A stretch of DNA of 64,000 bases from Trypanosoma brucei (taxonomy: Eukaryota): contig CP000070.1 in the NCBI GenBank assembly GCA_000002445.1, positions 2,016,001 through 2,080,000 of the forward strand, in the 5' to 3' direction. Made by a program: the position numbers and the translations under genes. Shown here one piece after another: positions 15,501 to 43,910 of this stretch. The stretch's first letter is position 1. The number at the start of each line of letters is the position of its first letter. The notes beneath the pieces are model-generated. The model made no database searches, was not told the origin of the DNA, and saw only the letters and a list, made by a program, of their open reading frames with translations.

Positions 15501-16457
15501 CCTCCGCGTTGGCGCCTCCATCCGGCAAGCTCCAGGGTTTGTTCCGCTGGACGAAACCCTGCGTATGCCCTGTGTAAGTGAACGCTTAAAGATGGACTTC
15601 GGCGCAGGCCCACACTGTTGTTCCTTCACTTTCATGGGGGACATGCGTGAGGCCTCGGAATGAGACAACGCACCGCGACTCACGTGCGAACCAGTGGTTA
15701 CACTACGAACAAATCGCTGAAGTTCAGCTACATCGATTTTCCTACGGTTTGGTGGGGAGCACGTGCGTGATTCCTTCGTGATAACACTGCTTCCCTTATT
15801 ATTTTCCTTGTTGAACCTATTAACACTGTTCGTCCGCGACATATTACCCTTTTCACATATGTTCCGTCTTGTGTGACCCTTTTGTTCACTGGGCGTCGAC
15901 CCATCCTCCACAGCACCGCTTGCCCCAGTCTCAACCACACTCTTTTTGCCTTTTTTCATGACCTTATCTGATGTGCCAGCATGTGATGAAACCGAACTCT
16001 GTTGCGACTGTTTCGCGTTCCGCTGAGTCTGCACAAATATTTTTGTGTTTGAAGGGTCGTAATGGATTCCCTCACGCAACGACGCCACTTCTGATGCATC
16101 TGCACGATCACTTCCCAAGTCAAACAGATGGTCAAAGCGCCCACCATCAACTAAACTAGCAGCGGGAACATCAACAATAGTAAGCGGTATCGGATGCGTT
16201 GGTAGCCGCTTCGGAGAACGCTTACTATATTCACTGGCATCAGCGGTAAGTTCAGAGACACCACTCACATCAGGGTCATTCAGGCCACCCTGCCATTCAC
16301 ATTCAGCTACCATCCTTTTGAGGTAAGCAAGCGACATACAAGGAAACTTTACCCGTGAGTTTGTAGTGATCCGCTGCACTGTTGGTGCCCTATTTTTGAC
16401 TCTTCTTTGTTTTGTAGTCCCCTCTATCGTGGACACACCTTGCTTTCCACTCAACAA
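12561..16457 (-). CDS. hypothetical protein, large Ser/Thr/Arg/Lys-rich basic protein (1298 aa)
   Basis: Uninterrupted 3.9 kb minus-strand ORF with a biased Ser/Thr/basic, low-complexity composition and no recognisable catalytic motif. Its first 53 codons lie inside duplicated block A. Confidence 0.5.
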   Translation of the reverse strand: MLSGKQGVSTIEGTTKQRRVKNRAPTVQRITTNSRVKFPCMSLAYLKRMVAECEWQGGLNDPDVSGVSELTADASEYSKRSPKRLPTHPIPLTIVDVPAASLVDGGRFDHLFDLGSDRADASEVASLREGIHYDPSNTKIFVQTQRNAKQSQQSSVSSHAGTSDKVMKKGKKSVVETGASGAVEDGSTPSEQKGHTRRNICEKGNMSRTNSVNRFNKENNKGSSVITKESRTCSPPNRRKIDVAELQRFVRSVTTGSHVSRGALSHSEASRMSPMKVKEQQCGPAPKSIFKRSLTQGIRRVSSSGTNPGACRMEAPTRRFQKYHSTPNLAHTSPFSRCNSRRVPTSLHVAATKKHTSTAAPLSRQESKKGLAGAALQQRSRDTLGNGQGDVAVKARTASGKLKLWMEEKPKRGHTPMPEGVPSLQPLCSKVNLGRRPTHTKKGKSGAVKTVSDTTATTPTATPKTTVAPVITTMASAMSRVVTETEGTPIAQVEPQTTVASRFERSDLICVSFSDDVVEIAPRAEGDSVPKVRPLPLSMLEVSRRRLEKAVTSHSPTKLSWAVGSRRRKVVARHNVSHTTKCKKRNAARVTRKPRGGPQLGKASSKKQQPQGEKQTEGKGDFTHTTPSKVAAASMQKKRRLTHKKALRKLPKTPPCRLGRSSTAKQNDVHENEPIYPVKKEYGEGCRRKKNNRRRRTMSPDEEGREREMWAALCNPTRGAKNGLGWWQTTTDKEPIAMATDAASVAGRCEGEEIRRVNTPYGDEESAKTAHYPMGKRGSSFRRKNKSWVPATFSGGHLVEMNSGTSVNEDWGNSTDSMHVRDLQVGVSSAMKGPREVTSKRSGKSRTDIGETGYGTYAEKRQRSRTSIRNASSFRFTVSLSTLTTVSTQSANSAQGKSAINCDVLPSGQMAGGKSELDVDEDALSSRSPSARSPQVSTEFFTAVAGAVPPLEQQGKHQIRGLLRSFSTRCSYLTCGEGSPSPEPSNEVSVTWQTHLKEVELGKQGRSEKKAAAPVLNFCRTQGSERAIRCDTMVVCADSMGPKILPRPVNAPAVDPPERSCPKESENNTAVRAASGTNVTCQIRQTASATNGKPSGGRSLSTTSLLAKSRGSSERKRKSGPGISLFGQGSKENMCRDARISRAFYLKAPNALRSVPLVNARPFSYTQTNPTLPCTETNIKTRRRAWSLERIASSKPGSLSYFSNSNASTKSSGGNNNSGSNNPNSGYCSIASSSKRSSVGARSCIKNNNNNNSNNISDSSRCSKGKKNEYAGHDGCSFQRLGNGSLGKLMYGRGVNIA

Positions 16458-19237
16458 CTACGGTGTATCTACCGCAGTGGCGGCGCAGCACACATCAACC
16501 AAAGAATCAGAGAGAAGAGAATGTGTGACAGTAGTGAATGTGGAATGAAGGGGAAGTTTGACAACAACAACAGTGAAATATTACACATGTAAAACAGTTT
16601 GCGAGTAGCCCTGTTGTGGAAAGAAAAGAGGGTACACCGCCCCACACAACACGATATGTCAGCACGCAGTGCAACGGGGAGGGGAATCCGAATAACACTA
16701 CAACGGAAGCACATCACGTGCAATGACAAATATCATCCTTGATGAAACAGGTGACGGTAACATCTCCTCACTTTTCCATAGGAGTACTGTCTCGTTTACT
16801 CATCTTCCACTTGCTCACTTCGATATTAAGATGTGTGAGAAAACCAACCCAACCCAAGGGCAGCATTTCAGTCTCCTTCACAATGACTATCCATCCCACA
16901 ACGCGCCGCTTTTCCATCCCGAAGTCCGGAAGATCGCCGTTACTTCGTAGTGCTTATTGTGCCAACTCCTCACCACCGCAACAGATAATGTGTAAAACGA
17001 TGCCAAGGAAGAACCAACAGAGGTGTAGCGAAGTAAATTGACACACCCAAGCACAAACATATAGCAATTAGGATCAGCTGACGGTATGGCAAACCAAGGG
17101 ACCATGGCTGCCACCAACACACGTCAACTCGTTACCAACCGTGACGATTCTTAGCGGACTCGAGCACCACGACAGGCGTACGCACTGTGTGGATCTTCGG
17201 CGGTATCGGCATGTGGTCGCAGACAATCTCCTTGCAGTCAGTGAGTGTGCATGGGACACCGATTATATCATCCAAGCGTATTGAGCCACACCGTTCCAGC
17301 AGTAACCTCCCAATGGCCTTTTGGGACGCCAGCTTCTTGAGGCCCTCCGCTGCAATAGGGATGGCGCAGAGTCTCAGAACGCAAGACCGGATGGCACTTT
17401 TGTCGGCACTGATTTTTTCGAGTAACTCGCAGTCACTCAAACTCAACTCCTCGAGAGTCTTTATGGCAAATACAGGATCAACGTGTGTCAAGTGCTTGGC
17501 GTTTCTCACACATAGCGACCGCAGTGCTTCACACCGCGAGAGGTCCTCAATTTCCTTATTCCCCACGAAGGGACCCTCGAGTATCAACTTGCTGAGCTCC
17601 GGCAGCGAGGCGATGGCAGCAAATTCGGAGACGCTGCGCAGCCCACAAATATACAATTCCCTCAGTTTCTTCGGCGATGCCAACTTCGATACGTTCAGCT
17701 CCCCACCACAGTACCAGAGTCGAAGGCACGTGAGATTCGTGGCCGACTCACAAATGGTTTCCAATGTGGTGGTGGAAGCAGACCCGCTACACAACCCGAG
17801 GGTCTCCAATGGAGATCTCCGCCCGGGGAACACCACCTCGGGTGAGTCATCCAAAAACAGCCTGCGTAGATTCCGCAGGGATGCGATGGCCTTAGAAGTC
17901 TTTTTACTGAGTGTCGAGCAGAATCGCAGGTCGACTTCGCTCAGGGATGTGCTGTACAGCTTTCCCACACATTCATCAGTCACCGCAGTAGCCCGCAATA
18001 GGAGCTTCTCCAGCGGTGGCGCACAGTCCACAGGGCCAACAATTCTTGCACGACTGCATAGGCTGAGGTCCAACACCTTCAGCGACCTCAGGTTGGTCAA
18101 TGGGCTTATGTCAACAATTTCCTTGTTCCCGCTGAGGATCACCTCCTCGAGCGTAGTGAATGCTGATAGTGCCTTCACATCGGCATCCGTTACACTGCTA
18201 TTCGTCAGGCGCAACACACGAAGTAACGGCAGCTCGGTTCCCCACTCGAACGTAGAACGAACACCCACATTGTCAAGACATAACTCCACCAATTTCTTGC
18301 AGTTTTTCAGTGAGATCTTGCTATGCACCGCCGAGCAATCCCCAAGCCGCAGCACCTTTAACGACACACAATCATGAAAATACTCGACAAGTCCATTGCC
18401 AACGATAAGGGAGGTTCCGGTAATAACCAATCGTCTGAGAATTGGCCACGTCAGTGTGTCAGTGAAGGCATTCATGTTGGGACAGTTCTCAATGGTGATG
18501 CTATCGAGAAACAGGGCATTCCCTAAGAATTTGGCATCCTGTAACATCGAGATATTCTTCATTACAATCTCACGCAGTTTCTCAAGGGACTCCACACCTT
18601 TCTCCCATTCGTTATCCAGCCGTGTACCATGCAGGATAAGCGTTTGGAGGCAGGGGAATTTACCGATACACGACATGTTGGCTACAGCACCCGGCCCGAT
18701 TTCCAACAGGTATAACCCTTGATTGCTGAGTAACTCGAGGTCCAGGCGTCCACAACACCGTCGGAGGCGCAATTCTCCCACATCGCCCTTTAGTGATGAG
18801 AGTTCTTTCAGATTAAACCCCGGGTCGTCGACAACAATCACGTCTGCGGGGTCATCACATTCAAGTGGTGCGTTCTTATCGCAGTTTATAACTGCCTTCC
18901 ACGTGACTGGTCGTCTCCGATATTCATCATACTCTTCCCGCAGCTTTTCGTGTTCCGCTGCCACCATATGGACATGATTGCGCAGTTCTGCGACCTCCTC
19001 CCGCAGCTTCTCCACATCTTCATTGGTTACCATTTGTTCCCCACCTTCAGAGCCGAGTCGCTTCACCATCGCGCCTCCCCCTTTGCCTTTTGTATTTTTG
19101 GTGAGGGAAAGAGTGTGGATTGTGTAAAAAGGTGGAAAGGGCGATTTGAGTGACGTAAGAAAGGAAGGCTTGGGGAAGAAGTGGAGCTGCACACCCAGCG
19201 ACTTTGGACAATACAAACGGGTGTAACACTGTGCTGA
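16297..19237. repeat. segmental duplication block A, copy 1 (LRR gene, its 3' flank, and the 5' end of the downstream gene)
   Basis: About 2.94 kb, near-identical to 43918-46858. The six-frame ORFs are pairwise identical (16366..16548 = 43987..44169, 17187..18377 = 44808..45998, etc., with single substitutions). Homology ends abruptly at ...gtgtaacactgtgctga (19237 / 46858). Confidence 0.85.
17132..19069 (-). CDS. leucine-rich repeat protein, cysteine-containing LRR type (LRRP/ESAG8-like), copy 1
   Basis: About 20 tandem 23-25-aa LRRs of the L..L.L..C..ITD..L form (e.g. LRSLKVLDLSLCSRARIVGPVDCAPPLEKLLL, LTNSSVTDADVKALSAFTTLEEVILSGNKEIVDISPLTNL), preceded by a coiled coil (EDVEKLREEVAELRNHVHMVAAEHEKLREEYDEYRR). 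The track ORF extends to 19363. Start is placed at MVKRLGSE (19069) because the upstream ORF differs between the two copies and reads like a pyrimidine-rich 5'UTR. Confidence 0.65.
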   Translation of the reverse strand: MVKRLGSEGGEQMVTNEDVEKLREEVAELRNHVHMVAAEHEKLREEYDEYRRRPVTWKAVINCDKNAPLECDDPADVIVVDDPGFNLKELSSLKGDVGELRLRRCCGRLDLELLSNQGLYLLEIGPGAVANMSCIGKFPCLQTLILHGTRLDNEWEKGVESLEKLREIVMKNISMLQDAKFLGNALFLDSITIENCPNMNAFTDTLTWPILRRLVITGTSLIVGNGLVEYFHDCVSLKVLRLGDCSAVHSKISLKNCKKLVELCLDNVGVRSTFEWGTELPLLRVLRLTNSSVTDADVKALSAFTTLEEVILSGNKEIVDISPLTNLRSLKVLDLSLCSRARIVGPVDCAPPLEKLLLRATAVTDECVGKLYSTSLSEVDLRFCSTLSKKTSKAIASLRNLRRLFLDDSPEVVFPGRRSPLETLGLCSGSASTTTLETICESATNLTCLRLWYCGGELNVSKLASPKKLRELYICGLRSVSEFAAIASLPELSKLILEGPFVGNKEIEDLSRCEALRSLCVRNAKHLTHVDPVFAIKTLEELSLSDCELLEKISADKSAIRSCVLRLCAIPIAAEGLKKLASQKAIGRLLLERCGSIRLDDIIGVPCTLTDCKEIVCDHMPIPPKIHTVRTPVVVLESAKNRHGW

Positions 19238-20789
19238 CAAGGCATGATTATGTGTCTCATTTCTCAAGTCTACAAGGTGGTTGCTGGTGATGGCATGGTG
19301 TCTATGCGACTGGTCGATTCGTATTCGTTGAGCCATACGCTGACCCATAGATATATAGTTCATTTTCGGTACTTTACCCCGTGGACCAGTGCAGGAGGTT
19401 ACGCACGCGGCGGATAGTGAGATGATTCGTTCTTAGTCAATAATATGTGAAGGAGAGGGGCAAGATAGGATGGGCTGACAGAAGACAGTTTGGGGTGCGT
19501 CACTCAGCAGGTTGGGGATACCTTACTTCACCCTTTACGGTGTCAGTGTTGATGGCTGAACGCCGTTCTGCCTGCCTCTTCTCCTTTTTCTTTTCTCATA
19601 TCTTTTAGCTTCTGGGGTCTAAGCTGCCATGCACTTCCGACTTCTGAACCGCCCATCCACCCATTTTCCCCGCCCCATCCCTTTAACTCGTTTTATACGT
19701 CGGCAAGACATGCTAATGATGAGCACGGCTTATTTCGTTACTCATTTTTGTGCGCTCACTTGTGCGCCACCTCCTGGCGGGTGACCACGCATGAGTGAAT
19801 TGTACGTTTCCTTTCAGTTCCAGTGGAGGTAATATCTTAATGAAAGGGAAGGAGGAGACCGAGAGGGTAAGAGAACGTAAAACATTGGTGAGGTTTGTTC
19901 AGGACGTAAGGAATTGGTAAGGCAAACAGAGAAAAGAAATAGAGATGACGCTGACATCATTAGGAGTAGCTTAGAAGCTCACGTGCCACCTAATGAGCTT
20001 TCCATTTCCCTTCTAAACAGTTTATCTTTTACGAAGCGGGGCGTGATCTACGAGGAAGGCATTGGCATACGATGTTCCTTTCCTCTTTTCCCCTCCTTTC
20101 AAATGCATAAATAATGCCAACGAGCAAAAAGGATTGACTGGGGGGAGGGGGGAGGGATGGAAGGGGGAACAACAAAAGACCGCTATGGATTAGCCAATAG
20201 CGGTGCCCTGAAGGCAATGTTGGGAATTGATGTCATTTCCTTTCATTTGTGTATAATTCCCATACATTACTGTCAATATGTTGGTTTTACCATCGACTGT
20301 TCTCTTTTCTTAACGGGCACAATCTATTCCATTTCACTCCTTTTCATAACCACTCCCCGCCGCTTCCTTTCACATTATTCTTTTCGATGACCCCTCTTCG
20401 GCTTTTCCCTCGTTAAAGCGTTAAATGCCTCCCCCCTCCCCCTTAGCATTGCCCCATTCCTTCCTCTCTTTCTCTTTCTTTTCCGCATTGCTTCGTGTTT
20501 GACTCCTCAACGTTGACAATAATGATAATGGCCAACAGCAGCATCAACAGGAGGAGTTGAGCAGTTGCGTAAATTCATTTCCCCTTCCCTCCGGCCACCA
20601 TTCACCCTCCTTTTTTTTCCCTTTGCTTTTGTTCCCCAGCACAAGTGGGACAAAACTCCCTCCCCATTACCATCACCCACACGCATATTCTCCTCTCAAT
20701 AATATGGAAATTAACATACAAATGTATAAATATAAAATATATGGGTGTAAATATATACGGGGTCATGAAAGGGAACAGGTTTGCAAAAA

Positions 20790-20791
<2 letters not shown>

Positions 20792-20840
<49 letters not shown>
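20792..20840. repeat. (CA)n microsatellite, about 25 units
   Basis: Direct reading: acacacac... across 20792-20840. Confidence 0.9.
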
Positions 20841-20847
<7 letters not shown>

Positions 20848-21477
20848 GCAAAAAGGAGAAAATAGACTAGGTAAAAGGAAACAACTTTTTTATGTTTGGT
20901 TTCATTTTAAAAGGAAAGTGAGTAAAAGAGGAAAGCACCGAGATTGCGTAAAACCGCACCCCGCCACGTGAGTGATACATAAAAAAAAAGTTATGAAGGA
21001 TCTCATATTACCTTCAACGTCAGTGTGGGTAAATAGTAATAATATTAACAATAACAATAAGAGTGATCAAAACAACATTGACAGTAGAAAAAAAGGTATC
21101 ACAGTCGTGGTAGCATAAAATAAGTAAAAGGTAAATAATAACAAAAATAGCAACAGCAAAATTCTTAAAAAAAACTGGATGGGCACAGTGCGCGCATTGG
21201 CCACCGGAGGGAGAAGAAGAAAAGGGACTGGGTATTAAACTGAAGGGGTGCACACATACGCATAAACGAGGAGACACGCACATGGAAGCTCCAAAAAGGA
21301 GGAAAGGATAAAACAACAACAACAACAACAACAACAACAAAATTTTACCCATGAGCAAGTGTGAGAGCTTTCCTGTCTGTTTTATGTTGCAGCAGCAGTA
21401 GCATTAGCATTAGCAGCAACTGCACGTCCATACGTATGATCAAGCATATATACATATTTATTCATTCGGTCATATAA

Positions 21478-21508
<31 letters not shown>

Positions 21509-22135
21509 TATTATGTACGTACGTAAACATGCCTGGAGCGCAGGAACGGAACTCATTAAGTCAGAGGGGGGGGGGGAAGCAGAAAATATCAAATAAAAAA
21601 GAAAAAAAAAGCAACAGTCACATAACAAACCAAACACAAAATAAAGGCTCACAGACTTCCACCCCCTGCTATACCGTCTCGGCTACTGCTACTCGTTCCT
21701 TTCCAGCCGTCCAACCAGTTGAACCGCAAACCAAAAACAAACAAACAGAAACAAAAAGAGAAAGATGTGTGTGTAAGCTATTTCCCCTTTCCCTGCAACA
21801 CCTCTAATCCATATGCACCAACACACACACAAAAGCACAAAAAACAGGGGGAAAAAACGTTGGTAATCCTTTAGTAAGAAACTCAGCGTAAAGCGGAAAG
21901 TGATTAAGGTGCGCGGAAAGGAAAATAATCAACATCCAAGAATGAAGAAGGAAAACAACAACAACAGCAACGCCACCTACCCAATGCGCGAAGCCTAGGT
22001 CAGTATGAAACGATGCGCAGAGTGGAAAAGAAGACAAAAGGCTGGTGATGAAAGGAAATGAAAAATCCAAGAAACCAACGGTGGTGTGCGGCTGCCGTCT
22101 CCATAACACATTAATGCACATGCGAACGGTGTTAG

Positions 22136-22460
22136 CTCCCACGGAACAAGAAGACAACAAGGTATTCGCGCCGGTCCTGTAATGCGTCTCCACTGCTCAA
22201 ATGGCGTCTCACACATGACCCAGTGCAATCGTGTGCACATGAACAACTGGTGTCAATCAGATATTCAGAAGGAAAAATCAAGAGGCCCCGCTTCAGAGGT
22301 TGGTAAATAATATTTTTCATAAGGATGTCTCGCAACTCTCGGACTGTGTGGCGCGGCTGCGGCGTAGAGGAACAGTCATGCATGCAGGACAATCAGCTAC
22401 GGGAATGAATACCTCCTCTACGGGTGCTGGCAAGCATCTTACTGATGGGACAAACATGCA
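22136..22460. repeat. duplication block B, copy 1 (kinesin last ~48 codons plus ~180 bp 3' flank)
   Basis: About 325 bp, near-identical to 43585-43910. ORFs 22132..22392(-) and 43582..43845(-) encode the same 86 aa, and 21804..22193(-) and 43431..43646(-) share their first 18 aa. Homology starts at ctcccacggaacaagaag. Confidence 0.8.
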
Positions 22461-24749
22461 TAGAAGCCGCGCAGCAAATGCCCAGAAAGCGAAGCTCAGT
22501 GAAGTAAATACCGTAACTCTATAGATACGCCTGGCGCGAGCACGCATTCGTGGCTCGCTTGCAGGTGTACGTCCCACCTGTCCTTCATTGACACCGTCTT
22601 TACGCCGCAGACAGAGGTGCGGCACTATTCGACTCAGGGAAACAGGTGGTGAAGAGCACAGTGAATCCTGAAAACCTCCCAGGAACGTATCATCCGATTC
22701 CCTTTCGTGGTGCAGCGTACTCAAACGGGAAGAGCACAATCCAACAATCCGTGGATCTCTGGCTGGCGTATCTGAAAGCTCGGGGCTGTATGAAGTGGCG
22801 CCAAAACTTCCTAACCGACTACTCATTGTTGAAAGCTGCTTTTCTAGCCACTTGTTACGTACAGTTAGCCTCCTTACTTTTGCCAGTAGTTCGGCCTTCG
22901 TCTCCGTACGACCCACGACAGGTCGGTTCTGCACCCTCTTGGCGCATTTAGCAAACTGTAGTGTTGAAAGGGTTTCGGTTGCGTCCTTTAGATCCGGGGA
23001 TATGGTGCAGAGGAGCGCTGTCACGGCATTCCCGCCGATACTTTCCTGCAACAACCGTGTGAGTTTAGAGTCACGATACGGTATGTGCACGGCATCCCCT
23101 CCCTTAGGGTTCGTGGTGAGTTTCCTAATAACATTCCCCAGCAGAGTTAAGGAAAGATTAATGTGTCGTGCCTCTTCTAGTCGCTTTCCGTTAGCCTTCG
23201 TATCGGCTACCCTCTCGGAACCGGCCAAGTCCACCAGAGTCGCTAATGATCGAATTTCTGTTATTACTAATGGCGGCTGCGGTGCTAAACCCAACGCGCC
23301 CTGACCCTTATTCACCACAGGTGCCTCCCGTTGCCGTAATGCAATGTAAAAGAATAGATGAGAGCGCCCACTCCGCTGGTTCACTGCTGTCGAACCGACA
23401 TGACGCTGCACTGCTGCCCATTTGAGAACATGTAGCGCTTCCTCGGCATCACGCACCGGATGCCATGAAAGGCCTTCCACAACAACTCCCACATTTGCAA
23501 CGTCCCGTATTTTCAGTGTGGCACTGGACGCGGTGGATTTGGCGCGACGGGAGGCCGTACCAACTGCGACCCGATTCTGACACACTACCCCTTTTGCATC
23601 GATTGATTGGCCCCCAGCCCCCGTTTCATTGGTTGTGTCGCAGCCCTTTTTGGAAGTTTTGGGTTTCAAAATAAACTGCAATAAATCGTACATGTCTTCC
23701 TTGTAGATTTCCATTGCACTCACTTCCACTGCATAACCCCACTCGCGTGCAGGTTGTGAGGCCTTGCCCCCAGACATTGCTTCCGTTTTTCTCATCTGAC
23801 TTCGCTCCTGCTCTGTGGCCGTGGTTGCCGAGGACGTTTGATGTAAACCCTTGTTTTCCAACCGAGCAAACAACTCCTGCAGCATTCGCGGTAATATCCC
23901 CGCCTCATCCGGGTCAGCCAAGCGCTCAGGCAAGCCACCCGCAGGTCCAAGCATTGTATGAGTTTTACCGCTTCCGCTCTGTCCATAGCAGAGGATAGTT
24001 CCATTGAATCCTTCCAGCACATTCTGCAGAATAGGGCGACCGACGCGGTCCATTATTTCGTTCTGCGTGGTGTCACCTCCGAGTACGGCATCGAAGGCGA
24101 AGAAGCTGCCGCGCTCCTCTATTTCCCGCTGCTGCGAATTGCTGTCGAAGGGACTCCCAGAGGCGAAACCCTGAGCCTTCGGCTGCACACTAAACTCTTT
24201 CGGAGGGGGCACGTATTCAATTAAACCGTCTTCCTTGTGCAGCCGGCAACAGGTTGGTTTTACAGAGCCACGGAGTGCTGGTCGTACACGAACCGAGACG
24301 TTGATAGTTCCGCGCTTCATAGTGAACACCGCTGGGGTGTTTTTCGCGCCAACTAAAAGAGACGCCGCCTCTGTCTTTGGTGTTACCTGCGTATTTAGGC
24401 CGTTAACAGCGGCACCCCCGTACATTGTTTGGTCACTTTTCGTGAAGTCTGTTACTCCTGTTTTATCTGGGAGCTGCTCTACCTCAGGTGCAACGTGTAA
24501 ACTCAAGCGTCCCCCAAGAGAACTCAAATTCGACGGCAGGGAGCAAAAAGCCGGTTTGCTGAGGCGCGGCGTGTAGTTATCAGGTGCTGGTGTCTCTTCA
24601 AGGAATGAGGAGCTTCCAGGGACACTGTGAGGCCGGTGAAGAAAGTGGCTTTTCTCTAGAAGATCTGCACCAACGGAGGGGCAACGCTCTATTGTCCCAA
24701 GGGAGGGTTCTGGCATGGGAATAGTCGAATTTAAATGAATCCCATTCAT
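22317..24749 (-). CDS. kinesin motor protein
   Basis: Motor-domain signatures are present: P-loop GQSGSGKTHTM, switch I NQRSGRSH and switch II DLAGSE, plus LLGNVI and a neck/coiled coil (LLAKVRRLTVRNKWLEKQL). The motor is central and has loop insertions. The last 48 codons and 3' flank lie in repeat segment B. Confidence 0.8.
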   Translation of the reverse strand: MNGIHLNSTIPMPEPSLGTIERCPSVGADLLEKSHFLHRPHSVPGSSSFLEETPAPDNYTPRLSKPAFCSLPSNLSSLGGRLSLHVAPEVEQLPDKTGVTDFTKSDQTMYGGAAVNGLNTQVTPKTEAASLLVGAKNTPAVFTMKRGTINVSVRVRPALRGSVKPTCCRLHKEDGLIEYVPPPKEFSVQPKAQGFASGSPFDSNSQQREIEERGSFFAFDAVLGGDTTQNEIMDRVGRPILQNVLEGFNGTILCYGQSGSGKTHTMLGPAGGLPERLADPDEAGILPRMLQELFARLENKGLHQTSSATTATEQERSQMRKTEAMSGGKASQPAREWGYAVEVSAMEIYKEDMYDLLQFILKPKTSKKGCDTTNETGAGGQSIDAKGVVCQNRVAVGTASRRAKSTASSATLKIRDVANVGVVVEGLSWHPVRDAEEALHVLKWAAVQRHVGSTAVNQRSGRSHLFFYIALRQREAPVVNKGQGALGLAPQPPLVITEIRSLATLVDLAGSERVADTKANGKRLEEARHINLSLTLLGNVIRKLTTNPKGGDAVHIPYRDSKLTRLLQESIGGNAVTALLCTISPDLKDATETLSTLQFAKCAKRVQNRPVVGRTETKAELLAKVRRLTVRNKWLEKQLSTMSSRLGSFGATSYSPELSDTPARDPRIVGLCSSRLSTLHHERESDDTFLGGFQDSLCSSPPVSLSRIVPHLCLRRKDGVNEGQVGRTPASEPRMRARARRIYRVTVFTSLSFAFWAFAARLLCMFVPSVRCLPAPVEEVFIPVADCPACMTVPLRRSRATQSESCETSL

Positions 24750-25820
24750 ATTCTAACGCCGCGTGACGAACCAATGTAATGTTTGAATGTATATAAGTGA
24801 AATATGTTTATTTGTACTTCCCGTTCTAGCAGATGACAAGGACTACCACTACCACTACCGCACTTCACAACTACTAATATTGAAACTATAGTTACCTATG
24901 TCTTAAGACCAGCCGGCCAATGAAAGTTATCGATCTATATATCTATATCTATAGATATACAAAAAGATAGACAAATATAAACAAAAATATATAAATACGT
25001 GAGTTTGCCACCTCCCTATTATTGTTGTCCTTTTTTTTTCTTCTACTTCTCCTACTTGAGCAAATAAAACAATGATCAAGTGAGGAAACACCGGGTTCAG
25101 CGGTGCTCACCCTCCCCTTTACTCTACCACTCGAGGTGTATTAAAAAAAAATTTATACGAAACTCTACGCTTTAAGAACTACTTCCCTATATTTTCCCTC
25201 AACGAATCCCCAAACAGTCAAGGGCCTAATAAAATGCCTATGTGCGTCTCCTTTCCTGTTAAAACAAAAATAAACACGTTTGCCGTCAAGTATCCGAATG
25301 GGTATCACCGAAACGGCCAAACCCTCACGATGCATCAGTGGTGGTGGAGATGTCAACAAAGAGAAAAAGCAGTGGGAACAAACGTAGAAACAAAAAAAGA
25401 GGAGATGGAAGTGAGAGAAGAAGCAACCAAAGAAGCACATGCATATACACGGACACAAGTTCACACATACACGTATATGGGCTGGGGAAAAATTACTGAC
25501 TCCTACGTCGTTAACGCGCGAATAAGATAAGGATTGGATGTATATATTACAACGTTATTGGTAGTTACTACTCTTTTCTTTAAGTATTCCCTCTTCTCTT
25601 CTCTTCCTCCCTTTCCTTTTCTTCTCTTTGCTTCTGCCGCTGATATACACACTAGCGGCAACCATGAATGTCCCAACTCCATTTCATACTTGTGCGTATA
25701 TGACAGGGTTGCGTCTGCTCACCGTGCAATCATAAGCCTATCCATGATCCCCATACTGTTTTTTTTTTAAAAAATGCACACAAGCGCTTTAACGTGATGA
25801 TGAGTACGGATCATAATGCA

Positions 25821-28352
25821 TCAGCAGCCGGAAGTAATCACCTCTGACTTACCCGACTTCCGCATCACACGCACTTGTGTTGGATCAAACCCCCTTTCCT
25901 TCGACTGAAACACGGCCCACGGAGGGGTGGGCGCAGCATATTCCGCTGCAGTGAAGTCCCGCCTGCCGCTACGTGCCAACTCGGAAAACTTGTCGTAGTC
26001 GATCCATGTGTGCCATACGCCATCGATAAAGAAACGCCGTAGAGATATGAGAACGCAACAACTATGCTCGTGCTCGCACGCAATCCGATATGGTCCACAT
26101 AACGAACTCGTTGTCATGCCCCCTTCCACATGCGTCTCCGCACCGCTTTCAGCAGCGGCTACGGCGCCTTGCTGCTCCTCAACAATGTCTCTTCCTAACC
26201 ACATGCGTTTCTCCTTTGGCTCATTTGATGTCGCCAACTGCTGGCACAGCGCCTCACAGAACTCTACCACCTCCGTGTGACGCGGTACATTATCCTTCAT
26301 GGTGAGTGTTGATGTGCTACTCGTTCCGCAGTACGTGACTCCTTTCACTTCAATGAAGTCAGGCCAACCGAGTCGCACCAGATCGGCATAAGCTGACACA
26401 TTCTCCGTATTGTATTTATTCACGAGAGTCAGCCGAAACACCGTACGTTGAGGTTTCCGGCGCAGTTCTCGCACACAGGCGAGGCACCGCTCCCAATAGT
26501 CTTCGAACAGCGGGCGGTCAACGCGCTGAAGTTCCTCTGGCGTTGGTGCATCAATCGACAGATAGAGTTGCGTGACTGGCTTCAAATCCCGCAATTGCTC
26601 GGGGAATTGCGCGTTTGTAACCATGAAGGAAGAAATGTTCTGCTCGTGGAGTAGGTCAACGAAGGTGTTAATCTCCGGGTACATGATGGGCTCTCCAACG
26701 AGTGAGAGGGCGCAGTGCCGAACGTTAAGTGCTTCCTCGAGCCGCTGCGGTGTTACGCCCGGGACACCGCGCATTTGCTTAACCATCCGCCTATGTCCGG
26801 CGAGGCCCCCTTCAATTAACTCACGTGGAGGATCGACCTTCCAGCGAAATGAACGCCCAACCGGATTGGTGTGATGACGCCAGCAAAACACGCATTTGTT
26901 CGCACAGGCTAAACTTGGTGTCATTTCCATACACTGGTAGGATGCAATATTGTAGAAGGTATGTTTGTAACATCCACCACGGCCACGCAGCATGGCTTTG
27001 GTCCAACGGCACAGTTTCACTCCGCTGTGGGAGCCCACAAGGTGGTAGCCTTGCCGCTGTAAATTCTCCCGAAGGCGGGGGTACAAAAGCTCCGGGGGCT
27101 CTCCGTTGGTTGTGGATGAAAAATAATCATCACCCTCACCCACGATATCTTCCACATCTTCTGCATCACCGTCATCGCTATTATTATTATTATCATTTTT
27201 ATCATCATTGTTATCACTGTTTTCACTATCACTGTCACCATCGTCACTCCCGCATCCCTCCGATGGGTCTCCATTTTGACTGTTGTGATTACCACTGCCC
27301 GAGGTCACTGCTTCGTCGTCCTTCACACATTCGCCACCGACGCTTTGTTCCTCCTCCTCATTGTTTTTGTTATTTAAACGGCGGTTCAAACTCTGCGCCC
27401 CGTTCATTGATTTCTTCTTCATAACCGTTACTCCATCCGCAGTGAAAGCGGCCCGTCCAATCCACTTCACTAAAGCAGTGGAGAAGACATGAAAGAGTGT
27501 TGTGGTATTTGACTCACTCGCATAGACGGGTGGGATTACGAACTTTCCGCCGAGGCCTTTACACCATGTATACAAGTCCTTAGCGAAACGATTGAATTTC
27601 TCAGGTCCGTATGCAATGTCACCCAATCCGAATATAGCGAAATTTACTCCTGCAAAGACGTCACGCGGGACGCGGAAGTCCAAGTAGGCATCCTTCAGCA
27701 TGGAGGCGAAGCTGTGCGATGGCTCAGGTGCGGTGCCACCAGTGTATGTACTAACAAAGAAGACAACAAGCCCATAAGCCCCGCTTTCCAGCAGGTGCTC
27801 AGTGCTGCACTCTGTTGCTTCTTCCTTAAGTTGAAGTAGTTTTATTTCAGGTGCTACGCCGGCCTTGGGATCACGGCTACAACAACAAGACACCCCTGAA
27901 GCGGCGTCCAGCACCAAACTACCGCCGCAGGTCCCGTAGGCCGAGCTGTTCTCATGCAAAGCTAAATTTAGCATAGAGATGAGTTTGTTAGATAACTTGT
28001 ACGAGGTATTGGATTGCGTCGCGTATGCAACAAGAATTTTCTTCCTTTTCTGTTGCTTGCCACAGGTTTCTACATTTTCGCTGGTGATGACATCATCATT
28101 AGAGGAGCAGCAACGACAACTGCTGCCCTCACCAGCATCACGGCGATTCGGTATGATGCTTTTCCCATTATGAATTTGTGCGCCCGCAGTTGTTTGCGCC
28201 GCCTCTGGTGGTTGATCCTCAACTGACCGCCTCCGATGCATAAACCACCGAAAAAAAATAATGCCGACAAACGTTAACACCCAACAGCCAACGAGAAGAT
28301 CCCCCGGCGTAACGGATAGCAGCTCCATTGTGATGAGCGTTCGGGCGTACAC
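25821..28352 (-). CDS. TYW1: tRNA wybutosine-synthesizing protein 1 (4-demethylwyosine synthase; flavodoxin + radical SAM)
   Basis: N-terminal flavodoxin-like domain (KKILVAYATQSNTSYKLS, VVFFVSTYTGGTAPE). Acidic Asp/Asn/Ser linker. Radical-SAM cysteine triad CANKCVFC (CxxxCxxC). TYW1 hallmark blocks HLVGSHSGVKLCRWTKAMLRGRGGCYKHTFYNI and LSLVGEPIMYPEINTFVDLLHEQNISSFMVTNAQFPEQL. Confidence 0.8.
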   Translation of the reverse strand: MYARTLITMELLSVTPGDLLVGCWVLTFVGIIFFRWFMHRRRSVEDQPPEAAQTTAGAQIHNGKSIIPNRRDAGEGSSCRCCSSNDDVITSENVETCGKQQKRKKILVAYATQSNTSYKLSNKLISMLNLALHENSSAYGTCGGSLVLDAASGVSCCCSRDPKAGVAPEIKLLQLKEEATECSTEHLLESGAYGLVVFFVSTYTGGTAPEPSHSFASMLKDAYLDFRVPRDVFAGVNFAIFGLGDIAYGPEKFNRFAKDLYTWCKGLGGKFVIPPVYASESNTTTLFHVFSTALVKWIGRAAFTADGVTVMKKKSMNGAQSLNRRLNNKNNEEEEQSVGGECVKDDEAVTSGSGNHNSQNGDPSEGCGSDDGDSDSENSDNNDDKNDNNNNSDDGDAEDVEDIVGEGDDYFSSTTNGEPPELLYPRLRENLQRQGYHLVGSHSGVKLCRWTKAMLRGRGGCYKHTFYNIASYQCMEMTPSLACANKCVFCWRHHTNPVGRSFRWKVDPPRELIEGGLAGHRRMVKQMRGVPGVTPQRLEEALNVRHCALSLVGEPIMYPEINTFVDLLHEQNISSFMVTNAQFPEQLRDLKPVTQLYLSIDAPTPEELQRVDRPLFEDYWERCLACVRELRRKPQRTVFRLTLVNKYNTENVSAYADLVRLGWPDFIEVKGVTYCGTSSTSTLTMKDNVPRHTEVVEFCEALCQQLATSNEPKEKRMWLGRDIVEEQQGAVAAAESGAETHVEGGMTTSSLCGPYRIACEHEHSCCVLISLRRFFIDGVWHTWIDYDKFSELARSGRRDFTAAEYAAPTPPWAVFQSKERGFDPTQVRVMRKSGKSEVITSGC

Positions 28353-29034
28353 GCAGGGGGAAAAACAAGACAGTTACTGTGAGGATCGAGAGAAGATAGT
28401 GCGCTACAGTTTGTCAACCTTTATTAGTCGTACTTAAAGCAAAAAAGAAATGTTGCGTGCTTTATTATTACCACACACTTCGTCTTTCCACTTTAAATCT
28501 GCTTCCTTCACCCTCTCTTACTTCAGGTACCCTTGACCGGAATACACCCACAAGCACACACACAAGCTTTCTCTCACCCTGATTACCTTGTCCCGCCCTT
28601 GACCTTCCGAGAGCAGTTTCCTTCCTTGGCTTTGTTAAGTTTTTTTTTTAAGAAAAAGAAAGGGAGATCGTTGAAGAGAGAAAGAGACTGGAGCTCCGCA
28701 ACACGGCACCAGCAGCTCATTCGTACGGGTATGTGCTGCGCAGTTTTTCGCCGCGTTCTTACGAAATTCGTTTCACCTGACTCCTCCTTCCTTTCCATAT
28801 TCGCGTTTTTCCCTCTTGTGCTTCTTCTTGAAGATCACCCCCGTTTGAATCAAACATTACGAGGCGTGCTGGGGGTTAATTCACCCCTGCCACCACCGAT
28901 AATAACATGGAGAAATCAAACAAACAGAGCACCGATGAAACACAAACAACTGCAGAAAGATTTTCTGCCGTACACTTACAATCAAAGCAAAGAGACCACT
29001 GGTGTTACCGTGGGCGACGGTGGTGGCGTAGGTG

Positions 29035-29985
29035 TTAACGTTGAGCGAGCAGGTCCAGAGCAGATCGTAGCATTTTACATGCCACCTCGTGATCGTAAAA
29101 CTGCAGTGCACTAACCGCTTGCTTCGCGTAGTTTTGCGCCTCAATAATGGCGTCCATAGTTGGTCCTTTTGGGGCTGCGACGCCCGACACAGCGGCTGCA
29201 ATGTTGCTATTGTCATTACTGTTGTTAGGCTGAGCAGTTGTTTGAAACAATGGAGTGGATTGTTGTTGCTGCTGCGTGCTTGAGGTGTTAGTTGATTCGG
29301 GACCACTCCACATGGGTGTCTCTGGAGGTTCATGCGATGGAGGAGGTGGTTGAGGTGTCACATATTGCGCTGACCATTGTCCGTAGCCCGGCTGCTGCGA
29401 CTGCACGAAATTTGTGCTGAAGCCACCACCACCAGTACTCTCTCCTTCATGTTCTTTATTGCTTTCTACCATTCCCCCTGTTCTGTTGGGACTCACATAC
29501 GGCACACCTTTGTCCATCGCCTTCTTCATCTCAACAGCTATGTAGCGTGCATAGTCCCGCTTCTCCGTTGCAATAGGGTCTAAAGTACCGTCGTCTGTGA
29601 ATTGCGCCGTTGCCTCGAAGAGGAGCGAAGCAGTGAAGAAGAGCCGCACAAGGTTCATATTTGCCACGACTCCATCACTTCGCTCCTCATCGTCCGCTCT
29701 CGAAAATATTCTTAGTGCGTACTGTGTGAGCAACACCCGCCCGTCCACATCAGCGAGTTCCTGCTCCAGCCTCTTTTTCTCAGACTCAAGTGTGTCAAGA
29801 AGCTTCACGATAAACGCTTTGCCGGGGCCGTCTTCTTTGCGCCACATCTTCATGGCGAGGTACACAGCATGCGTCCTGAGGAAATACGCGACGACGGGGA
29901 CCCGCTCTTGAAATTCATCAGCTCGCTGCAGGAAAGGGCGAATGGAAGAGGCCCACTCGCGGGGGACTTCATCTGCTAAAGACAT
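29035..29985 (-). CDS. VTA1: Vta1/LIP5-like protein (Vps4 / ESCRT-III cofactor)
   Basis: N-terminal block IRPFLQRADEFQERVPVVAYFLRTHAVYLAMK matches the Vta1 N-terminal domain pattern (PYL.RA.E....PVVAY.C). Central Pro/Gln-rich linker. C-terminal MDAIIEAQNYAKQAVSALQFYDHEVACKMLRSALDLL resembles the VSL dimerisation domain. Confidence 0.5.
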   Translation of the reverse strand: MSLADEVPREWASSIRPFLQRADEFQERVPVVAYFLRTHAVYLAMKMWRKEDGPGKAFIVKLLDTLESEKKRLEQELADVDGRVLLTQYALRIFSRADDEERSDGVVANMNLVRLFFTASLLFEATAQFTDDGTLDPIATEKRDYARYIAVEMKKAMDKGVPYVSPNRTGGMVESNKEHEGESTGGGGFSTNFVQSQQPGYGQWSAQYVTPQPPPPSHEPPETPMWSGPESTNTSSTQQQQQSTPLFQTTAQPNNSNDNSNIAAAVSGVAAPKGPTMDAIIEAQNYAKQAVSALQFYDHEVACKMLRSALDLLAQR

Positions 29986-30402
29986 TCACTAAAGAGGCTA
30001 AGAGGACTTTAAAAAAAAAAAATGATAATGAAAATAATAACAATAATAATAAAGGATGGAGACTCATCGCAGCGCACAGGGGTGAGATGGGGACATGCTC
30101 ATGATGAAACAACACCGCGTGGCCGCTGCTCCTTTGAGCTTAGTAGTGAAGTACCTAGGCAAAGCAATAAAATACGCTCCGTTTCAACAAGGGGATAAAA
30201 GATTCTATGGTGGGGTGGTTGTTGGAAGGCACAAGTAAAACAGGGCATGCACATGAACATTAGTGCATATACCCCAGAAATGTGCGTTTCCACGCTCCCA
30301 CCCCTGTTGCGTCTATTCTACTCCTTTTCAGGCCTCAATCTACACCTGTAAATATCTATTTGTGTCGCTAAGCAGCCGTGGCTGTTGCCTTCTCGCGCTT
30401 TA

Positions 30403-35100: not shown

Positions 35101-35226
35101 AGTTCCTTTTCCTCACATCAATTCCATTCTATCCGAACAATGAACTTCTCATCCATCTCTTCGTATATATATGTATATATATATATATATATATACACGT
35201 TGCTTTTTTTTTGTCCTTTCTTTTTT
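32170..35226. other. 3.1 kb gene-free low-complexity intergenic tract ((CAA)n ~33933-33957, (GA)n ~34168-34186, (TA)n ~34495-34515)
   Basis: Same reasoning as for 9818-12560. It probably holds the long 3'UTR of the phosphatase gene plus processing signals for the downstream gene. Confidence 0.55.
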
Positions 35227-39930: not shown

Positions 39931-39950
39931 CTACCTACCTACCTACCTAC

Positions 39951-40006
<56 letters not shown>
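39931..40006. repeat. (TACC)5 followed by an (AC)n microsatellite, about 27 units
   Basis: Direct reading: ctacctacctacctacctacc then acacac... to about 40006. Confidence 0.9.
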
Positions 40007-40013
<7 letters not shown>

Positions 40014-40392
40014 ATTCACATATTAATATATATATATACATATATAAATGCACGGAAATATAGGGATTGATAGACAAGCAGAATCGTGCTGTCGTTACTT
40101 GACTGACTCAAGACCAATGGAAAGTAAGATGAAGCGGAGGATCTTCCCTCCCTTTCCTTCTGCATCCCCTCCAGTCTCCACATTTTCACTTCACTCTTCA
40201 TTCATTTTCCTCTTCTCAGCCTCTTACTTCTTCCTCCCCTTTAACCTTCTTTTCCCATGTTTTCTTTTCCACTCGCATCCCCATTCCCCCTTCAGCTTCC
40301 TTTTTCTTCCTTCTTAAATATTCCCTTTTACCTCTCCTTTTCCCTTTTCGTTAGTTTCACATCTCCATTTCAAAAGTTTGTGCCGTGTTTGA

Positions 40393-43584: not shown

Positions 43585-43910
43585 CAAACTCCCACGGAAC
43601 AAGAAGACAACAAGGTATTCGCGCCGGTCCTGTAATGTGTCTCCACTGCTCAAATGGCGTCTCACACATGACCCAGTGCAATCGTGTGCACATGAACAAC
43701 TGGTGTCAATCAGATATTCAGAAGGAAAAATCAAGAGGCCCCGCTTCAGGGGTTGGTAAATAATATTTTTCATAAGGATGTCTCGCAACTCTCGGACTGT
43801 GTGGCGCGGCTGCGGCGTAGAGGAACAGTCATGCATGCAGGACAATCAGCTACGGGAATGAATACCTCCTCTACGGGTGCTGGCAAGCATCTTACTGATA
43901 GGACAAACAT
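43585..43910. repeat. duplication block B, copy 2 (fused to block A copy 2)
   Basis: See copy 1. In this copy the kinesin-derived codons are detached from any motor domain. Confidence 0.8.

What the first reader, a model, noticed from the sequence alone, without database searches (positions are those of the whole stretch)
17132..19069. Duplicated cysteine-containing LRR protein gene, ESAG8/LRRP-like
Both copies encode intact 646-aa proteins. Each has an N-terminal coiled coil and about 20 LRR-CC repeats of the type seen in F-box/GRR1-like proteins and in T. brucei ESAG8/LRRP family members.

The few amino-acid differences between copies (e.g. KRLGSEGG vs KRSRSEGE near the N-terminus) all change the protein, with no obvious synonymous noise. 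The real start is probably the internal MVKR/MAKR, because the upstream extension differs between copies and reads like UTR.

Duplicates of this family inside an otherwise housekeeping transcription unit are unusual.
Basis: partly seen in the sequence, partly recalled or inferred. Interest (0 to 1): 0.55.

Follow-up and report, generated by a model that had tools for sequence, protein, structure and literature searches.

The report
Twin LRR genes kept identical
The two leucine-rich-repeat genes are the already annotated Trypanosoma brucei genes Tb927.7.7110 and Tb927.7.7180, not ESAG8 or F-box relatives; they sit at two chromosome positions that T. vivax also has, and gene conversion most likely keeps them about 99.4% identical.

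Summary
A 2,940-bp block (16298-19237) recurs at 43919-46858 with 18 mismatches and no gaps. Each copy holds an intact 645-codon LRR gene.

The window is T. brucei TREU927 chromosome 7. The proteins match GenBank AAZ12772.1 and AAZ12779.1, both named "LRRP, putative" (Tb927.7.7110 and Tb927.7.7180).

- The protein is one long N-terminal helix plus about 23 LRRs of about 23 residues.
- No RING or F-box was found, and Pfam LRR_6 is not significant.
- ESAG8 matches at 25% identity, in the LRRs only.
- Three of the 12 coding differences are synonymous. dN/dS is about 1, and the non-coding flanks differ at the same rate.
- The internal MVKR/MAKR start is supported.

The main result is about evolution. 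T. vivax has the same two positions bracketing the same six genes. Its own 2.8-kb block is 99.5% identical between copies, yet the orthologues are only about 32% identical. T. congolense also has two near-identical proteins.

Between TREU927 and T. b. gambiense DAL972, 15 sites changed in both copies together. Only a 25-nt island at codons 2-10, plus one other site, stays copy-specific.

Best reading: an old dispersed duplicate homogenised by interlocus gene conversion. The genes are ordinary and known; this is a modestly interesting example of concerted evolution.

The parts
16298..19237 (-). Repeat block A (copy 1). It holds 168 nt of 5' flank, the LRRP coding sequence, 794 nt of 3' UTR/intergenic sequence (16338-17131), and the first 40 nt of the next gene's coding sequence.
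   Evidence: blastn of the window against itself: 2,940 bp, 18 mismatches, 0 gaps versus 43919-46858.
17132..19069 (-). LRRP copy 1 coding sequence, 645 aa plus stop. This is Tb927.7.7110. GenBank AAZ12772.1 is annotated from the upstream ATG at 19363 as 743 aa.
   Evidence: The gene ID follows from the neighbour IDs.
19070..19237 (-). 5' flank shared by both copies. It has a pyrimidine-rich tract (about 19100-19186) followed by AG dinucleotides at 19, 13 and 7 nt upstream of the ATG. This is the inferred trans-splice acceptor region.
   Evidence: No differences between the copies here; sequence. The acceptor itself is inferred, not mapped.
19041..19065 (-). 25-nt island (codons 2-10) holding 5 of the 18 differences. 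It is copy-specific in both TREU927 and DAL972.
   Evidence: Clustering simulation gives P about 1.7e-4.
43919..46858 (-). Repeat block A' (copy 2).
44753..46690 (-). LRRP copy 2 coding sequence, 645 aa plus stop. This is Tb927.7.7180, identical to GenBank AAZ12779.1.
22136..22459 (-). Block B: the last 143 nt of the kinesin (Tb927.7.7120) coding sequence plus 181 nt of its 3' UTR. This is the native copy.
   Evidence: The tail motif PVA[DG]CP[AS]C is shared with the T. vivax kinesin.
43589..43912 (-). Block B': a 324-bp copy of the kinesin 3' end (3 mismatches) lying directly downstream of A'. In the direction of transcription the order is A' then B', whereas locus 1 reads B, a 2.9-kb spacer, then A.
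43913..43918 (.). 6-bp filler GTGGAA at the A'|B' junction.
43770..44078 (-). Chimeric junction ORF (102 codons from a TTG; about 62 from the ATG). The 5' end of the 1298-aa gene is fused in frame to the last residues of the kinesin.
   Evidence: translation compared.
19238..22135 (.). Unique 2.9-kb spacer (X) between the kinesin 3' end and block A. It is absent from locus 2 and contains (CA)n and (TA)n microsatellites.
22317..42567 (-). The six-gene block bracketed by the two repeats: kinesin (7120), TYW1, Vta1, a 588-aa protein, dual-specificity phosphatase (7160) and cyclin CYC4 (7170).
   Evidence: Pfam hits; gene IDs; the same block sits between the two LRRPs in T. vivax.

Best explanation
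The feature is the annotated T. brucei gene pair Tb927.7.7110 and Tb927.7.7180.

**The protein.** Each gene encodes a soluble 645-aa protein: one long N-terminal helix (a likely coiled coil for self-association) followed by about 23 LRRs of about 23 residues. This is most likely a protein-protein interaction scaffold, not an E3 ligase subunit.

**The repeat unit.** Each copy lies in a 2.9-kb repeat that forms a complete mRNA-processing unit. It includes the gene's own pyrimidine tract and splice-acceptor region, the coding sequence, the whole 3' UTR, and the splice-acceptor region and first codons of the next gene. Both copies lie in one minus-strand run of ORFs, which I take to be one polycistronic unit. 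They therefore probably act mainly as a two-fold gene dose with identical regulation (inferred).

**History.** The two positions bracket a six-gene block and are older than the T. brucei / T. vivax split. The copies stay about 99.4-99.5% identical within each species because of recurrent interlocus gene conversion, that is, non-crossover homologous recombination. A crossover between the direct repeats would delete the six intervening genes and should be selected against (inferred).

**Direction.** In T. brucei at least one transfer ran from locus 1 to locus 2. It copied past the end of the gene into the next gene, then switched template to the kinesin 3' end and joined with a 6-bp filler.

**Shown versus inferred.** Shown: identity, architecture, synteny and the substitution patterns. 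Inferred: the conversion mechanism, the dosage role and the splice site.
For: **Identity**
- The translations equal AAZ12772.1 and AAZ12779.1 of TREU927 chromosome 7.
- Neighbour IDs match published ones: 7120 kinesin, 7160 DsPhos, 7170 CYC4.

**Architecture**
- Pfam LRR_14 and LRR_4 pass threshold.
- The AlphaFold2 model has a helix at 16-51 and about 23 strands.
- Foldseek returns generic LRR solenoids: internalin, TLR8 and Roco.

**Deep concerted evolution**
- One T. vivax contig reads SHIPPO-like gene, LRRP, cyclin, DSPc, 532-aa gene, Vta1, TYW1, kinesin, LRRP, 911-aa gene, then MAM33 and zf-MYND. This is the order seen in the window.
- The T. vivax repeat is 2,783 bp at 99.53% identity. 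It starts 131 nt before the ATG and ends 125 nt into the next gene, an architecture like that in T. brucei.
- The T. brucei and T. vivax LRRPs share only 32% identity. The neighbouring genes share 32-64%, except the 1298-aa/911-aa pair, which has no detectable similarity.
- T. congolense has two proteins that differ at 4 of 643 residues.
- T. grayi has an orthologue at locus 2. T. cruzi has none at locus 1.

**Recent conversion**
- At 15 sites both TREU927 copies carry one base and both DAL972 copies carry another.
- Only 6 sites are copy-specific in both strains.

**No sign of selection between the copies**
- dN/dS is about 1, and flank divergence (6 in 834 nt) matches coding divergence (12 in 1,938 nt).

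**Direction of transfer**
- The junction ORF fuses the 5' end of the 1298-aa gene to the kinesin tail.
- That tail is native to the kinesin, because its motif is shared with T. vivax.
Against: - The T. congolense loci could not be fetched, so its two copies are not placed on the map.
- T. grayi locus 1 and T. cruzi locus 2 were not seen.
- The DAL972 assembly has 100-N gaps inside both repeats, one chimeric contig and poor read ends. Some 'both-copies' sites away from the unique flanks could therefore reflect collapsed reads.
- Both reference genomes are haploid consensus sequences of diploids, so some copy differences may be allelic.
- The block ends differ between species: 13 codons into the next gene in T. 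brucei against 41 in T. vivax. B' is absent from T. vivax. The present boundaries may therefore come from separate overwriting events, not from one ancestral event.
- No experiment bears on the protein's function.
- Published expression data cannot separate copies that share their whole 3' UTR.
Confidence: 0.8

Rival explanations
1. Independent recent duplications. Each species (T. brucei, T. vivax, T. congolense) copied its LRRP gene separately and recently, so the copies are similar because they are young, not because they are being converted.
For: - Divergence is very low in all three species.
- The block ends are not identical between T. brucei and T. vivax.
- B' exists only in T. brucei.
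- T. cruzi lacks a copy at locus 1.
Against: - It needs the same donor unit to land in the same intergenic slot, between the 1318-aa/SHIPPO-side gene and the cyclin, in separate lineages.
- T. grayi already has the gene at locus 2, and both salivarian species have it at locus 1.
- Within T. brucei, 15 sites changed in both copies after the TREU927/DAL972 split, although both strains share the same junctions and the same N-terminal island. That requires conversion.
Confidence: 0.1
2. Functionally diverging paralogues. The copies are being driven apart by selection on the protein, especially the N-terminus (MVKRLGSEGG versus MAKRSRSEGE).
For: - Five of the 18 differences cluster in 25 nt (P about 1.7e-4).
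- All five change amino acids.
- The island is copy-specific in both TREU927 and DAL972, while sequence on both sides has been homogenised.
Against: - Overall dN/dS is about 1, and the flanks differ as much as the coding sequence.
- Five non-synonymous changes out of five is not unusual when about 76% of coding sites are non-synonymous.
- The T. vivax and T. congolense pairs show no N-terminal island.
- A dense mismatch patch can persist simply because it blocks heteroduplex extension (inference from general knowledge of mismatch-repair control of recombination).
Confidence: 0.15
3. Assembly artefact. The second copy is a mis-assembled or mis-placed repeat in the reference sequence.
For: The DAL972 assembly is visibly broken at both loci, with 100-N gaps and a chimeric contig.
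Against: - In the window each copy is continuous with different unique flanks, and the two differ at 18 sites.
- An independent T. vivax contig has the same two-locus layout.
- DAL972 fragments anchor to all four unique flanks.
Confidence: 0.02

Closest known systems
Trypanosome 'LRRP' proteins (GenBank name for the many T. brucei leucine-rich repeat proteins, e.g. the chromosome 1 LRRPs CAB95333.1 and CAJ16709.1)
   Same: Both copies carry this GenBank name. They share the LRR style (LxxLxLxxC...D(V/I)SPL...L) and give BLASTP E-values of 1e-17 to 1e-25 at 24-28% identity to other T. brucei LRRPs.
   Different: This is a distinct orthologue group. It has a fixed length of 643-651 aa, an N-terminal helix, and full-length collinear orthologues in T. 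congolense (38%), T. vivax (32%) and T. grayi (28%). 'LRRP' is a descriptive label, not a defined family.
ESAG8 (expression-site-associated gene 8; P26337, CAQ57457.1)
   Same: An LRR protein of similar length (630 aa) with repeats of similar period. The pairwise BLASTP E-value is 3e-13.
   Different: ESAG8 has an N-terminal RING (residues 8-49) and lies in telomeric VSG expression sites. Our protein has a helix in place of the RING, lies in a conserved internal gene cluster, and matches at only 25% identity in the LRRs. The published ESAG8-like internal genes are Tb927.1.3670 and Tb927.3.580 (PMC3605285).
F-box/LRR proteins (FBXL, GRR1, AMN1; CC-type LRR)
   Same: Cysteine-containing LRRs. 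One plant model for F-box-associated LRRs (PF24758) passes threshold at 31 bits.
   Different: No F-box is present. LRR_6 is below threshold. The period is about 23 residues, not about 26. The best solved-structure matches are internalins, TLR8 and Roco, not Skp2/FBXL.
Concerted evolution of duplicated genes in trypanosomatids (tandem arrays in T. brucei, PMC1855330; beta-tubulin loci in Leishmania, PMC1533823)
   Same: Paralogues are more alike within a species than orthologues are between species, and the homogenisation extends into the UTRs.
   Different: Here there are two dispersed copies 22-28 kb apart that bracket six unrelated genes, not a tandem array. This pair is not mentioned in PMC1855330.

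Membership tests
Leucine-rich repeat superfamily | Repeated LRR motifs detected by curated profiles above their thresholds | tested here: met
   LRR_14 scores 47.8 bits (cut-off 40) and LRR_4 scores 45.9 bits (cut-off 27) for both copies. Internalin chains match at E 2e-9.
Leucine-rich repeat superfamily | Solenoid of parallel beta strands with a regular period | tested here: met
   The AlphaFold2 model has mean pLDDT 78 and about 23 strands from residue 99 to 610, with a mean spacing of about 23 residues. Foldseek hits to LRR structures reach probability 1.00.
ESAG8 | N-terminal RING zinc finger | tested here: not met
   No RING family appears at E <= 1 in either copy. ESAG8 itself shows zf-C3HC4_3 at residues 8-49 in the same kind of scan. 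Our N-terminus is a helix with no Cys/His pattern.
ESAG8 | Location in a telomeric VSG expression site | tested here: not met
   The flanking genes are kinesin, TYW1, Vta1, DsPhos, CYC4, MAM33 and zf-MYND, in an order conserved with T. vivax and T. cruzi.
ESAG8 | Close sequence relationship to ESAG8 | tested here: not met
   The best HSP covers 359 columns of LRR at 25% identity, E 3e-13. This is weaker than the match to several other LRRPs.
ESAG8 | Nuclear localisation signal or nuclear location | not tested
   No localisation data were found and no NLS predictor was available.
F-box/LRR (FBXL, GRR1, AMN1; CC-type) | F-box domain | tested here: not met
   No F-box family appears at E <= 1.
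F-box/LRR (FBXL, GRR1, AMN1; CC-type) | CC/RI-type repeats (Pfam LRR_6) with a period of about 26 residues | tested here: not met
   LRR_6 scores E 0.05-0.16, 12.5-14 bits against a 23.4-bit cut-off. The period is about 23 residues.
Interlocus gene conversion / concerted evolution | Paralogues within a species far more similar than orthologues between species | tested here: met
   Within species the pairs are 98.8% (T. brucei) and 99.4% (T. congolense, T. vivax) identical at protein level. Between species they are 28-38% identical.
Interlocus gene conversion / concerted evolution | Both loci positionally conserved across species, meaning the duplication predates the split | tested here: met
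   T. vivax loci L001 and L002 have the same gene order as the window. T. grayi has the gene at locus 2. The T. congolense positions were not retrievable.
Interlocus gene conversion / concerted evolution | Homogeneity extends through non-coding flanks to sharp boundaries | tested here: met
   In T. brucei the 168 nt of 5' flank has 0 differences and the 834 nt of 3' flank has 6. The T. vivax block runs from -131 to +717 nt around the coding sequence.
Interlocus gene conversion / concerted evolution | Substitutions shared by both paralogues within a strain but not between strains | tested here: met
   15 such sites separate TREU927 from DAL972, against 6 sites that are copy-specific in both strains. 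Caveat: the DAL972 assembly is gapped in the repeat.

The most novel reading that the evidence does not exclude
The pair may be more than a passive dose duplicate. It could be a long-lived recombination module made of two directly repeated 2.9-kb units that have been held identical since before the salivarian radiation. On this reading:
- the 25-nt island at codons 2-10 resists conversion and gives T. brucei two distinct N-termini;
- the repeats allow reversible excision or amplification of the six-gene block between them, which includes the stumpy-pathway phosphatase Tb927.7.7160 and cyclin CYC4, as direct repeats do in Leishmania;
- the permuted A'|B' junction with its 6-bp filler could be a scar of such a circular or tandem intermediate.
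Probability: 0.1. Interest if true: 0.6.

Novelty: already known. Interest (0 to 1): 0.3.

Why it matters
The genes themselves are ordinary. Both are annotated in the 2005 T. brucei reference as putative LRRPs, and neither has a known function.

What the analysis adds:
- It corrects the ESAG8/F-box label and the over-long 743-aa gene model.
- It shows that the differences between the copies look neutral.
- It documents, apparently for the first time in the literature searched, that two dispersed copies 22-28 kb apart occupy the same positions in T. vivax, and are near-identical within each of three species.

Practical consequences:
- Short-read mapping, RNA-seq and single-cell marker calls cannot separate 7110 from 7180. 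Both are reported in expression studies (PMC3957582, PMC3973304, PMC8939820).
- The repeat breaks assemblies, as seen in DAL972.

If the repeats also mediate copy-number change of the six-gene block between them, that would be of wider interest. Nothing here shows that they do.

Tried and rejected
**Searches that gave nothing useful**
- Exact look-up of the two 645-aa products in the contig index found nothing on record.
- The word-index protein search with the single protein, and again with the 7-sequence alignment, returned only the T. brucei cluster plus unrelated LRR proteins. It missed the orthologues because LRR words saturate the candidate list. The exhaustive representative search did find them.
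- Contigs for the two T. congolense proteins are not on record.
- The second-best T. grayi LRRP (P0031) turned out to lie in an unrelated locus, not locus 1.
- The T. grayi sequence downstream of its LRRP is full of N gaps, so it could not be checked for a stub.
- A literature search by UniProt and RefSeq accession found nothing.
- The T. brucei tandem-array paper does not mention this pair.

**Ideas rejected**
- ESAG8 membership: no RING, wrong location, weak similarity.
- An F-box/CC-LRR protein.
- Positive selection between the copies: dN/dS is about 1.
- An assembly artefact.

**Considered but left open**
- Whether the stub at locus 2 is the original sequence from which the 1298-aa gene took its start. 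For block B this reverse direction is rejected, because the kinesin tail is conserved with T. vivax. For the 5' stub of the 1298-aa gene it remains open.
Full report
**1. Observation**

The minus strand carries an ORF at 17132-19363 (743 aa) whose internal ATG at 19069 gives 645 aa plus a stop. A second ORF at 44753-46963 holds the same 645-aa reading frame.

A blastn of the window against itself shows one 2,940-bp direct repeat, 16298-19237 = 43919-46858, with 18 mismatches and no gaps (99.39%). A second repeat of 324 bp, 22136-22459 = 43589-43912, has 3 mismatches.

**2. Differences between the copies**

- Twelve of the 18 mismatches are in the coding sequence, six are in the 834-nt 3' flank, and none are in the 168-nt 5' flank.
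- The coding differences fall in 10 codons and cause 8 amino-acid changes.
- L113 and E508 are synonymous, and S292G (AGT to GGC) includes one synonymous step.
- With 467 synonymous and 1,468 non-synonymous sites, pS is about 0.0064 and pN about 0.0061, so dN/dS is about 1.
- Flank divergence is 0.0072, essentially the same.
- Five differences do cluster within 25 nt at codons 2-10 (19041-19065). In a simulation, 18 random sites produce such a cluster with P of about 1.7e-4.

**3. Identity**

A cluster look-up shows that copy 2 equals AAZ12779.1 / XP_846338.1 (645 aa). The 743-aa ORF of copy 1 equals AAZ12772.1 / XP_846331.1. [quoted passage not shown]

Pfam hits on the neighbours give kinesin, TYW1, Vta1, DSPc and cyclin. 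Published IDs give Tb927.7.7120 as kinesin, 7160 as dual-specificity phosphatase and 7170 as CYC4. Together with a table listing 7110 and 7180 as LRRPs, these assign copy 1 to Tb927.7.7110 and copy 2 to Tb927.7.7180.

**4. The start codon**

Homology between the copies ends 168 nt upstream of the ATG. That stretch holds a pyrimidine-rich tract (about 19100-19186), and the first AG dinucleotides after it lie 19, 13 and 7 nt before the ATG.

Copy 2 is annotated at 645 aa. The orthologues are 643-651 aa and align from the same start. The splice site itself is inferred, not mapped.

**5. What the protein is**

- Pfam LRR_14 and LRR_4 pass their cut-offs. LRR_6 does not (E 0.05-0.16). No F-box or RING appears at E <= 1.
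- The best solved relatives by sequence are internalins.
- An AlphaFold2 model built from a 7-sequence alignment (mean pLDDT 78.3, pTM 0.72) shows a helix at 16-51 and about 23 strands from residue 99 to 610, spaced about 23 residues apart.
- Foldseek returns generic LRR solenoids: internalin A, TLR8 and Roco.
- Weak coiled-coil-type Pfam hits (TSC22, CENPU, ZapB) cover residues 8-59.
- ESAG8 was identified by name and shows a RING at residues 8-49. It matches our protein at 25% identity over the LRRs only, with E 3e-13. Other T. brucei LRRPs score E 1e-17 to 1e-25.
- The literature names Tb927.1.3670 and Tb927.3.580, which carry an NLS and a RING, as the ESAG8-like internal genes (PMC3605285).

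Conclusion: this is an LRR scaffold with an N-terminal helix. It belongs to the loosely named trypanosome LRRP set. It is not ESAG8 and not an F-box protein.

**6. Orthologues and synteny**

The exhaustive representative search found full-length collinear relatives:
- T. congolense: 38% identity, two proteins.
- T. vivax: 32% identity, two proteins on one contig.
- T. grayi: 28% identity.

The T. vivax loci read SHIPPO-like gene, LRRP, cyclin, DSPc, 532-aa gene (L002) and 532-aa gene, Vta1, TYW1, kinesin, LRRP, 911-aa gene, 148-aa gene, MAM33, zf-MYND (L001). The two loci overlap by 146 bp. This is exactly the order seen in the window.

The T. vivax repeat is 2,783 bp at 99.53% identity. It runs from 131 nt before the ATG to 717 nt after the stop, which includes the first 125 nt of the 911-aa gene. 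Its 8 coding differences are 4 synonymous and 4 non-synonymous.

The T. congolense pair differs at 4 of 643 residues.

Between T. brucei and T. vivax, the neighbouring proteins are 32-64% identical, and the 1298-aa/911-aa pair has no detectable similarity at all. Copies evolving independently since before that split could therefore not be 99% identical, least of all in their UTRs.

T. grayi has the gene at locus 2, after its SHIPPO-like and 1490-aa genes. T. cruzi has only 1.6 kb with no LRR signal between its kinesin and its 999-aa gene. Locus 2 therefore looks ancestral. Locus 1 is either a salivarian gain or a loss in T. cruzi.

**7. Recent conversion within T. brucei**

In T. b. gambiense DAL972 both loci are interrupted by 100-N gaps inside the repeat, and one contig is chimeric across it. 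Fragments nevertheless anchor to all four unique flanks.

Aligning them with the two TREU927 copies gives:
- 15 sites where both TREU927 copies share one base and both DAL972 copies share another. Three of these lie within 100 nt of the unique 5' flank.
- 6 sites that are copy-specific in both strains: the five island sites and 16695.

Without conversion, each of the 15 sites would need two parallel mutations. Caveats are the quality of the DAL972 assembly and the fact that both genomes are diploid.

**8. Junction structure**

At locus 2 the repeat ends 40 nt into the coding sequence of the 1298-aa gene. It is then joined through a 6-bp filler (GTGGAA) to a copy of the last 143 nt of the kinesin coding sequence plus 181 nt of its 3' UTR.

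In the direction of transcription, locus 1 reads B, a 2.9-kb spacer, then A. Locus 2 reads A' then B', which is a permuted order. The kinesin tail motif PVA[DG]CP[AS]C is shared with T. vivax, so B is the native copy and B' was copied from locus 1.

This pattern fits a replicative repair event that copied from locus 1, ran past the end of homology, switched template and ended by end-joining. It also fits copying from a tandem or circular intermediate. Which of these happened is not resolved. T. vivax has no B'.

**9. Function and expression**

No functional study was found. Published data report:
- Tb927.7.7110 as translationally up-regulated in procyclic forms (PMC3973304).
- Both genes as slightly up-regulated by a stumpy-inducing compound (PMC3957582).
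- Tb927.7.7180 as a marker of the meiotic/gamete cell cluster in tsetse salivary glands (PMC8939820).

Because the copies share their whole 3' UTR, these assignments to one copy or the other are not reliable (inference).

**10. Verdict**

The genes are known and ordinary, and the ESAG8/F-box reading is rejected.

The most useful result is that the pair is an old dispersed duplicate, conserved in position, and most likely kept near-identical by interlocus gene conversion. A small copy-specific island at codons 2-10 persists in T. brucei. This is a further example of a well-known process, here in a dispersed rather than a tandem setting. I did not find it described in the papers searched.

Noticed in passing
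window 43589-44078: There is a chimeric junction downstream of copy 2. The 5' end of the 1298-aa gene (Tb927.7.7100-side neighbour) is fused in frame, through a 6-bp filler GTGGAA, to the last residues and 3' UTR of the kinesin. This gives an ORF of 102 codons from a TTG, or about 62 from the ATG. The order of the blocks is permuted relative to locus 1. Whether the ORF is expressed is unknown.
   Followed up: partly
window 19070-19363: The GenBank model for copy 1 (743 aa, AAZ12772.1) starts at an upstream ATG. Part of that extension lies in unique sequence, and all of it lies upstream of the likely splice acceptor, so the model is probably over-extended by 98 codons.
   Followed up: partly
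L005 11087-11186 and L008 18063-18162 (T. b. gambiense DAL972, FN554970.1): Both LRRP loci in the DAL972 assembly contain 100-N gaps inside the repeat. One contig joins locus-1 upstream sequence to locus-2 downstream sequence. The annotation therefore shows a 362-aa fragment next to a 743-aa LRRP. This is most likely a misassembly caused by the repeat.
   Followed up: partly
window 12561-16337; L001 12528-15263; L007 18008-21007: The large protein downstream of copy 1 (1298-codon ORF; about 1258 aa from the ATG) has no BLAST-detectable similarity to its positional counterparts in T. vivax (911 aa) or T. cruzi (999 aa). The next gene (148 aa) is 69% identical between T. vivax and T. cruzi. The large gene is either evolving very fast or has been replaced.
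   Followed up: partly
L007 16420-18007 (T. cruzi MBSY01000635.1): T. cruzi has only about 1.6 kb between its kinesin and its 999-aa gene, and tblastn finds no LRRP signal there. The locus-1 copy is therefore absent from T. cruzi.
   Followed up: yes
window 53343-54665: There are internal direct repeats (units of about 111 and 333 nt, 61-91% identical) inside the 2395-aa ORF at 52788-59975. Its DAL972 counterpart carries faint SHIPPO-repeat hits.
   Followed up: no
window 20794-20841 and 21491-21510: A (CA)24 and a (TA)10 microsatellite lie in the 2.9-kb AT-rich spacer between the kinesin and copy 1. T. vivax has only 275 nt at the equivalent place.
   Followed up: no
window 35227-38127: The dual-specificity phosphatase inside the bracketed six-gene block is Tb927.7.7160, which was reported as a hit in the RNAi screen for stumpy formation (PMC4403954). 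The neighbouring cyclin is CYC4 (PMC1914216).
   Followed up: partly
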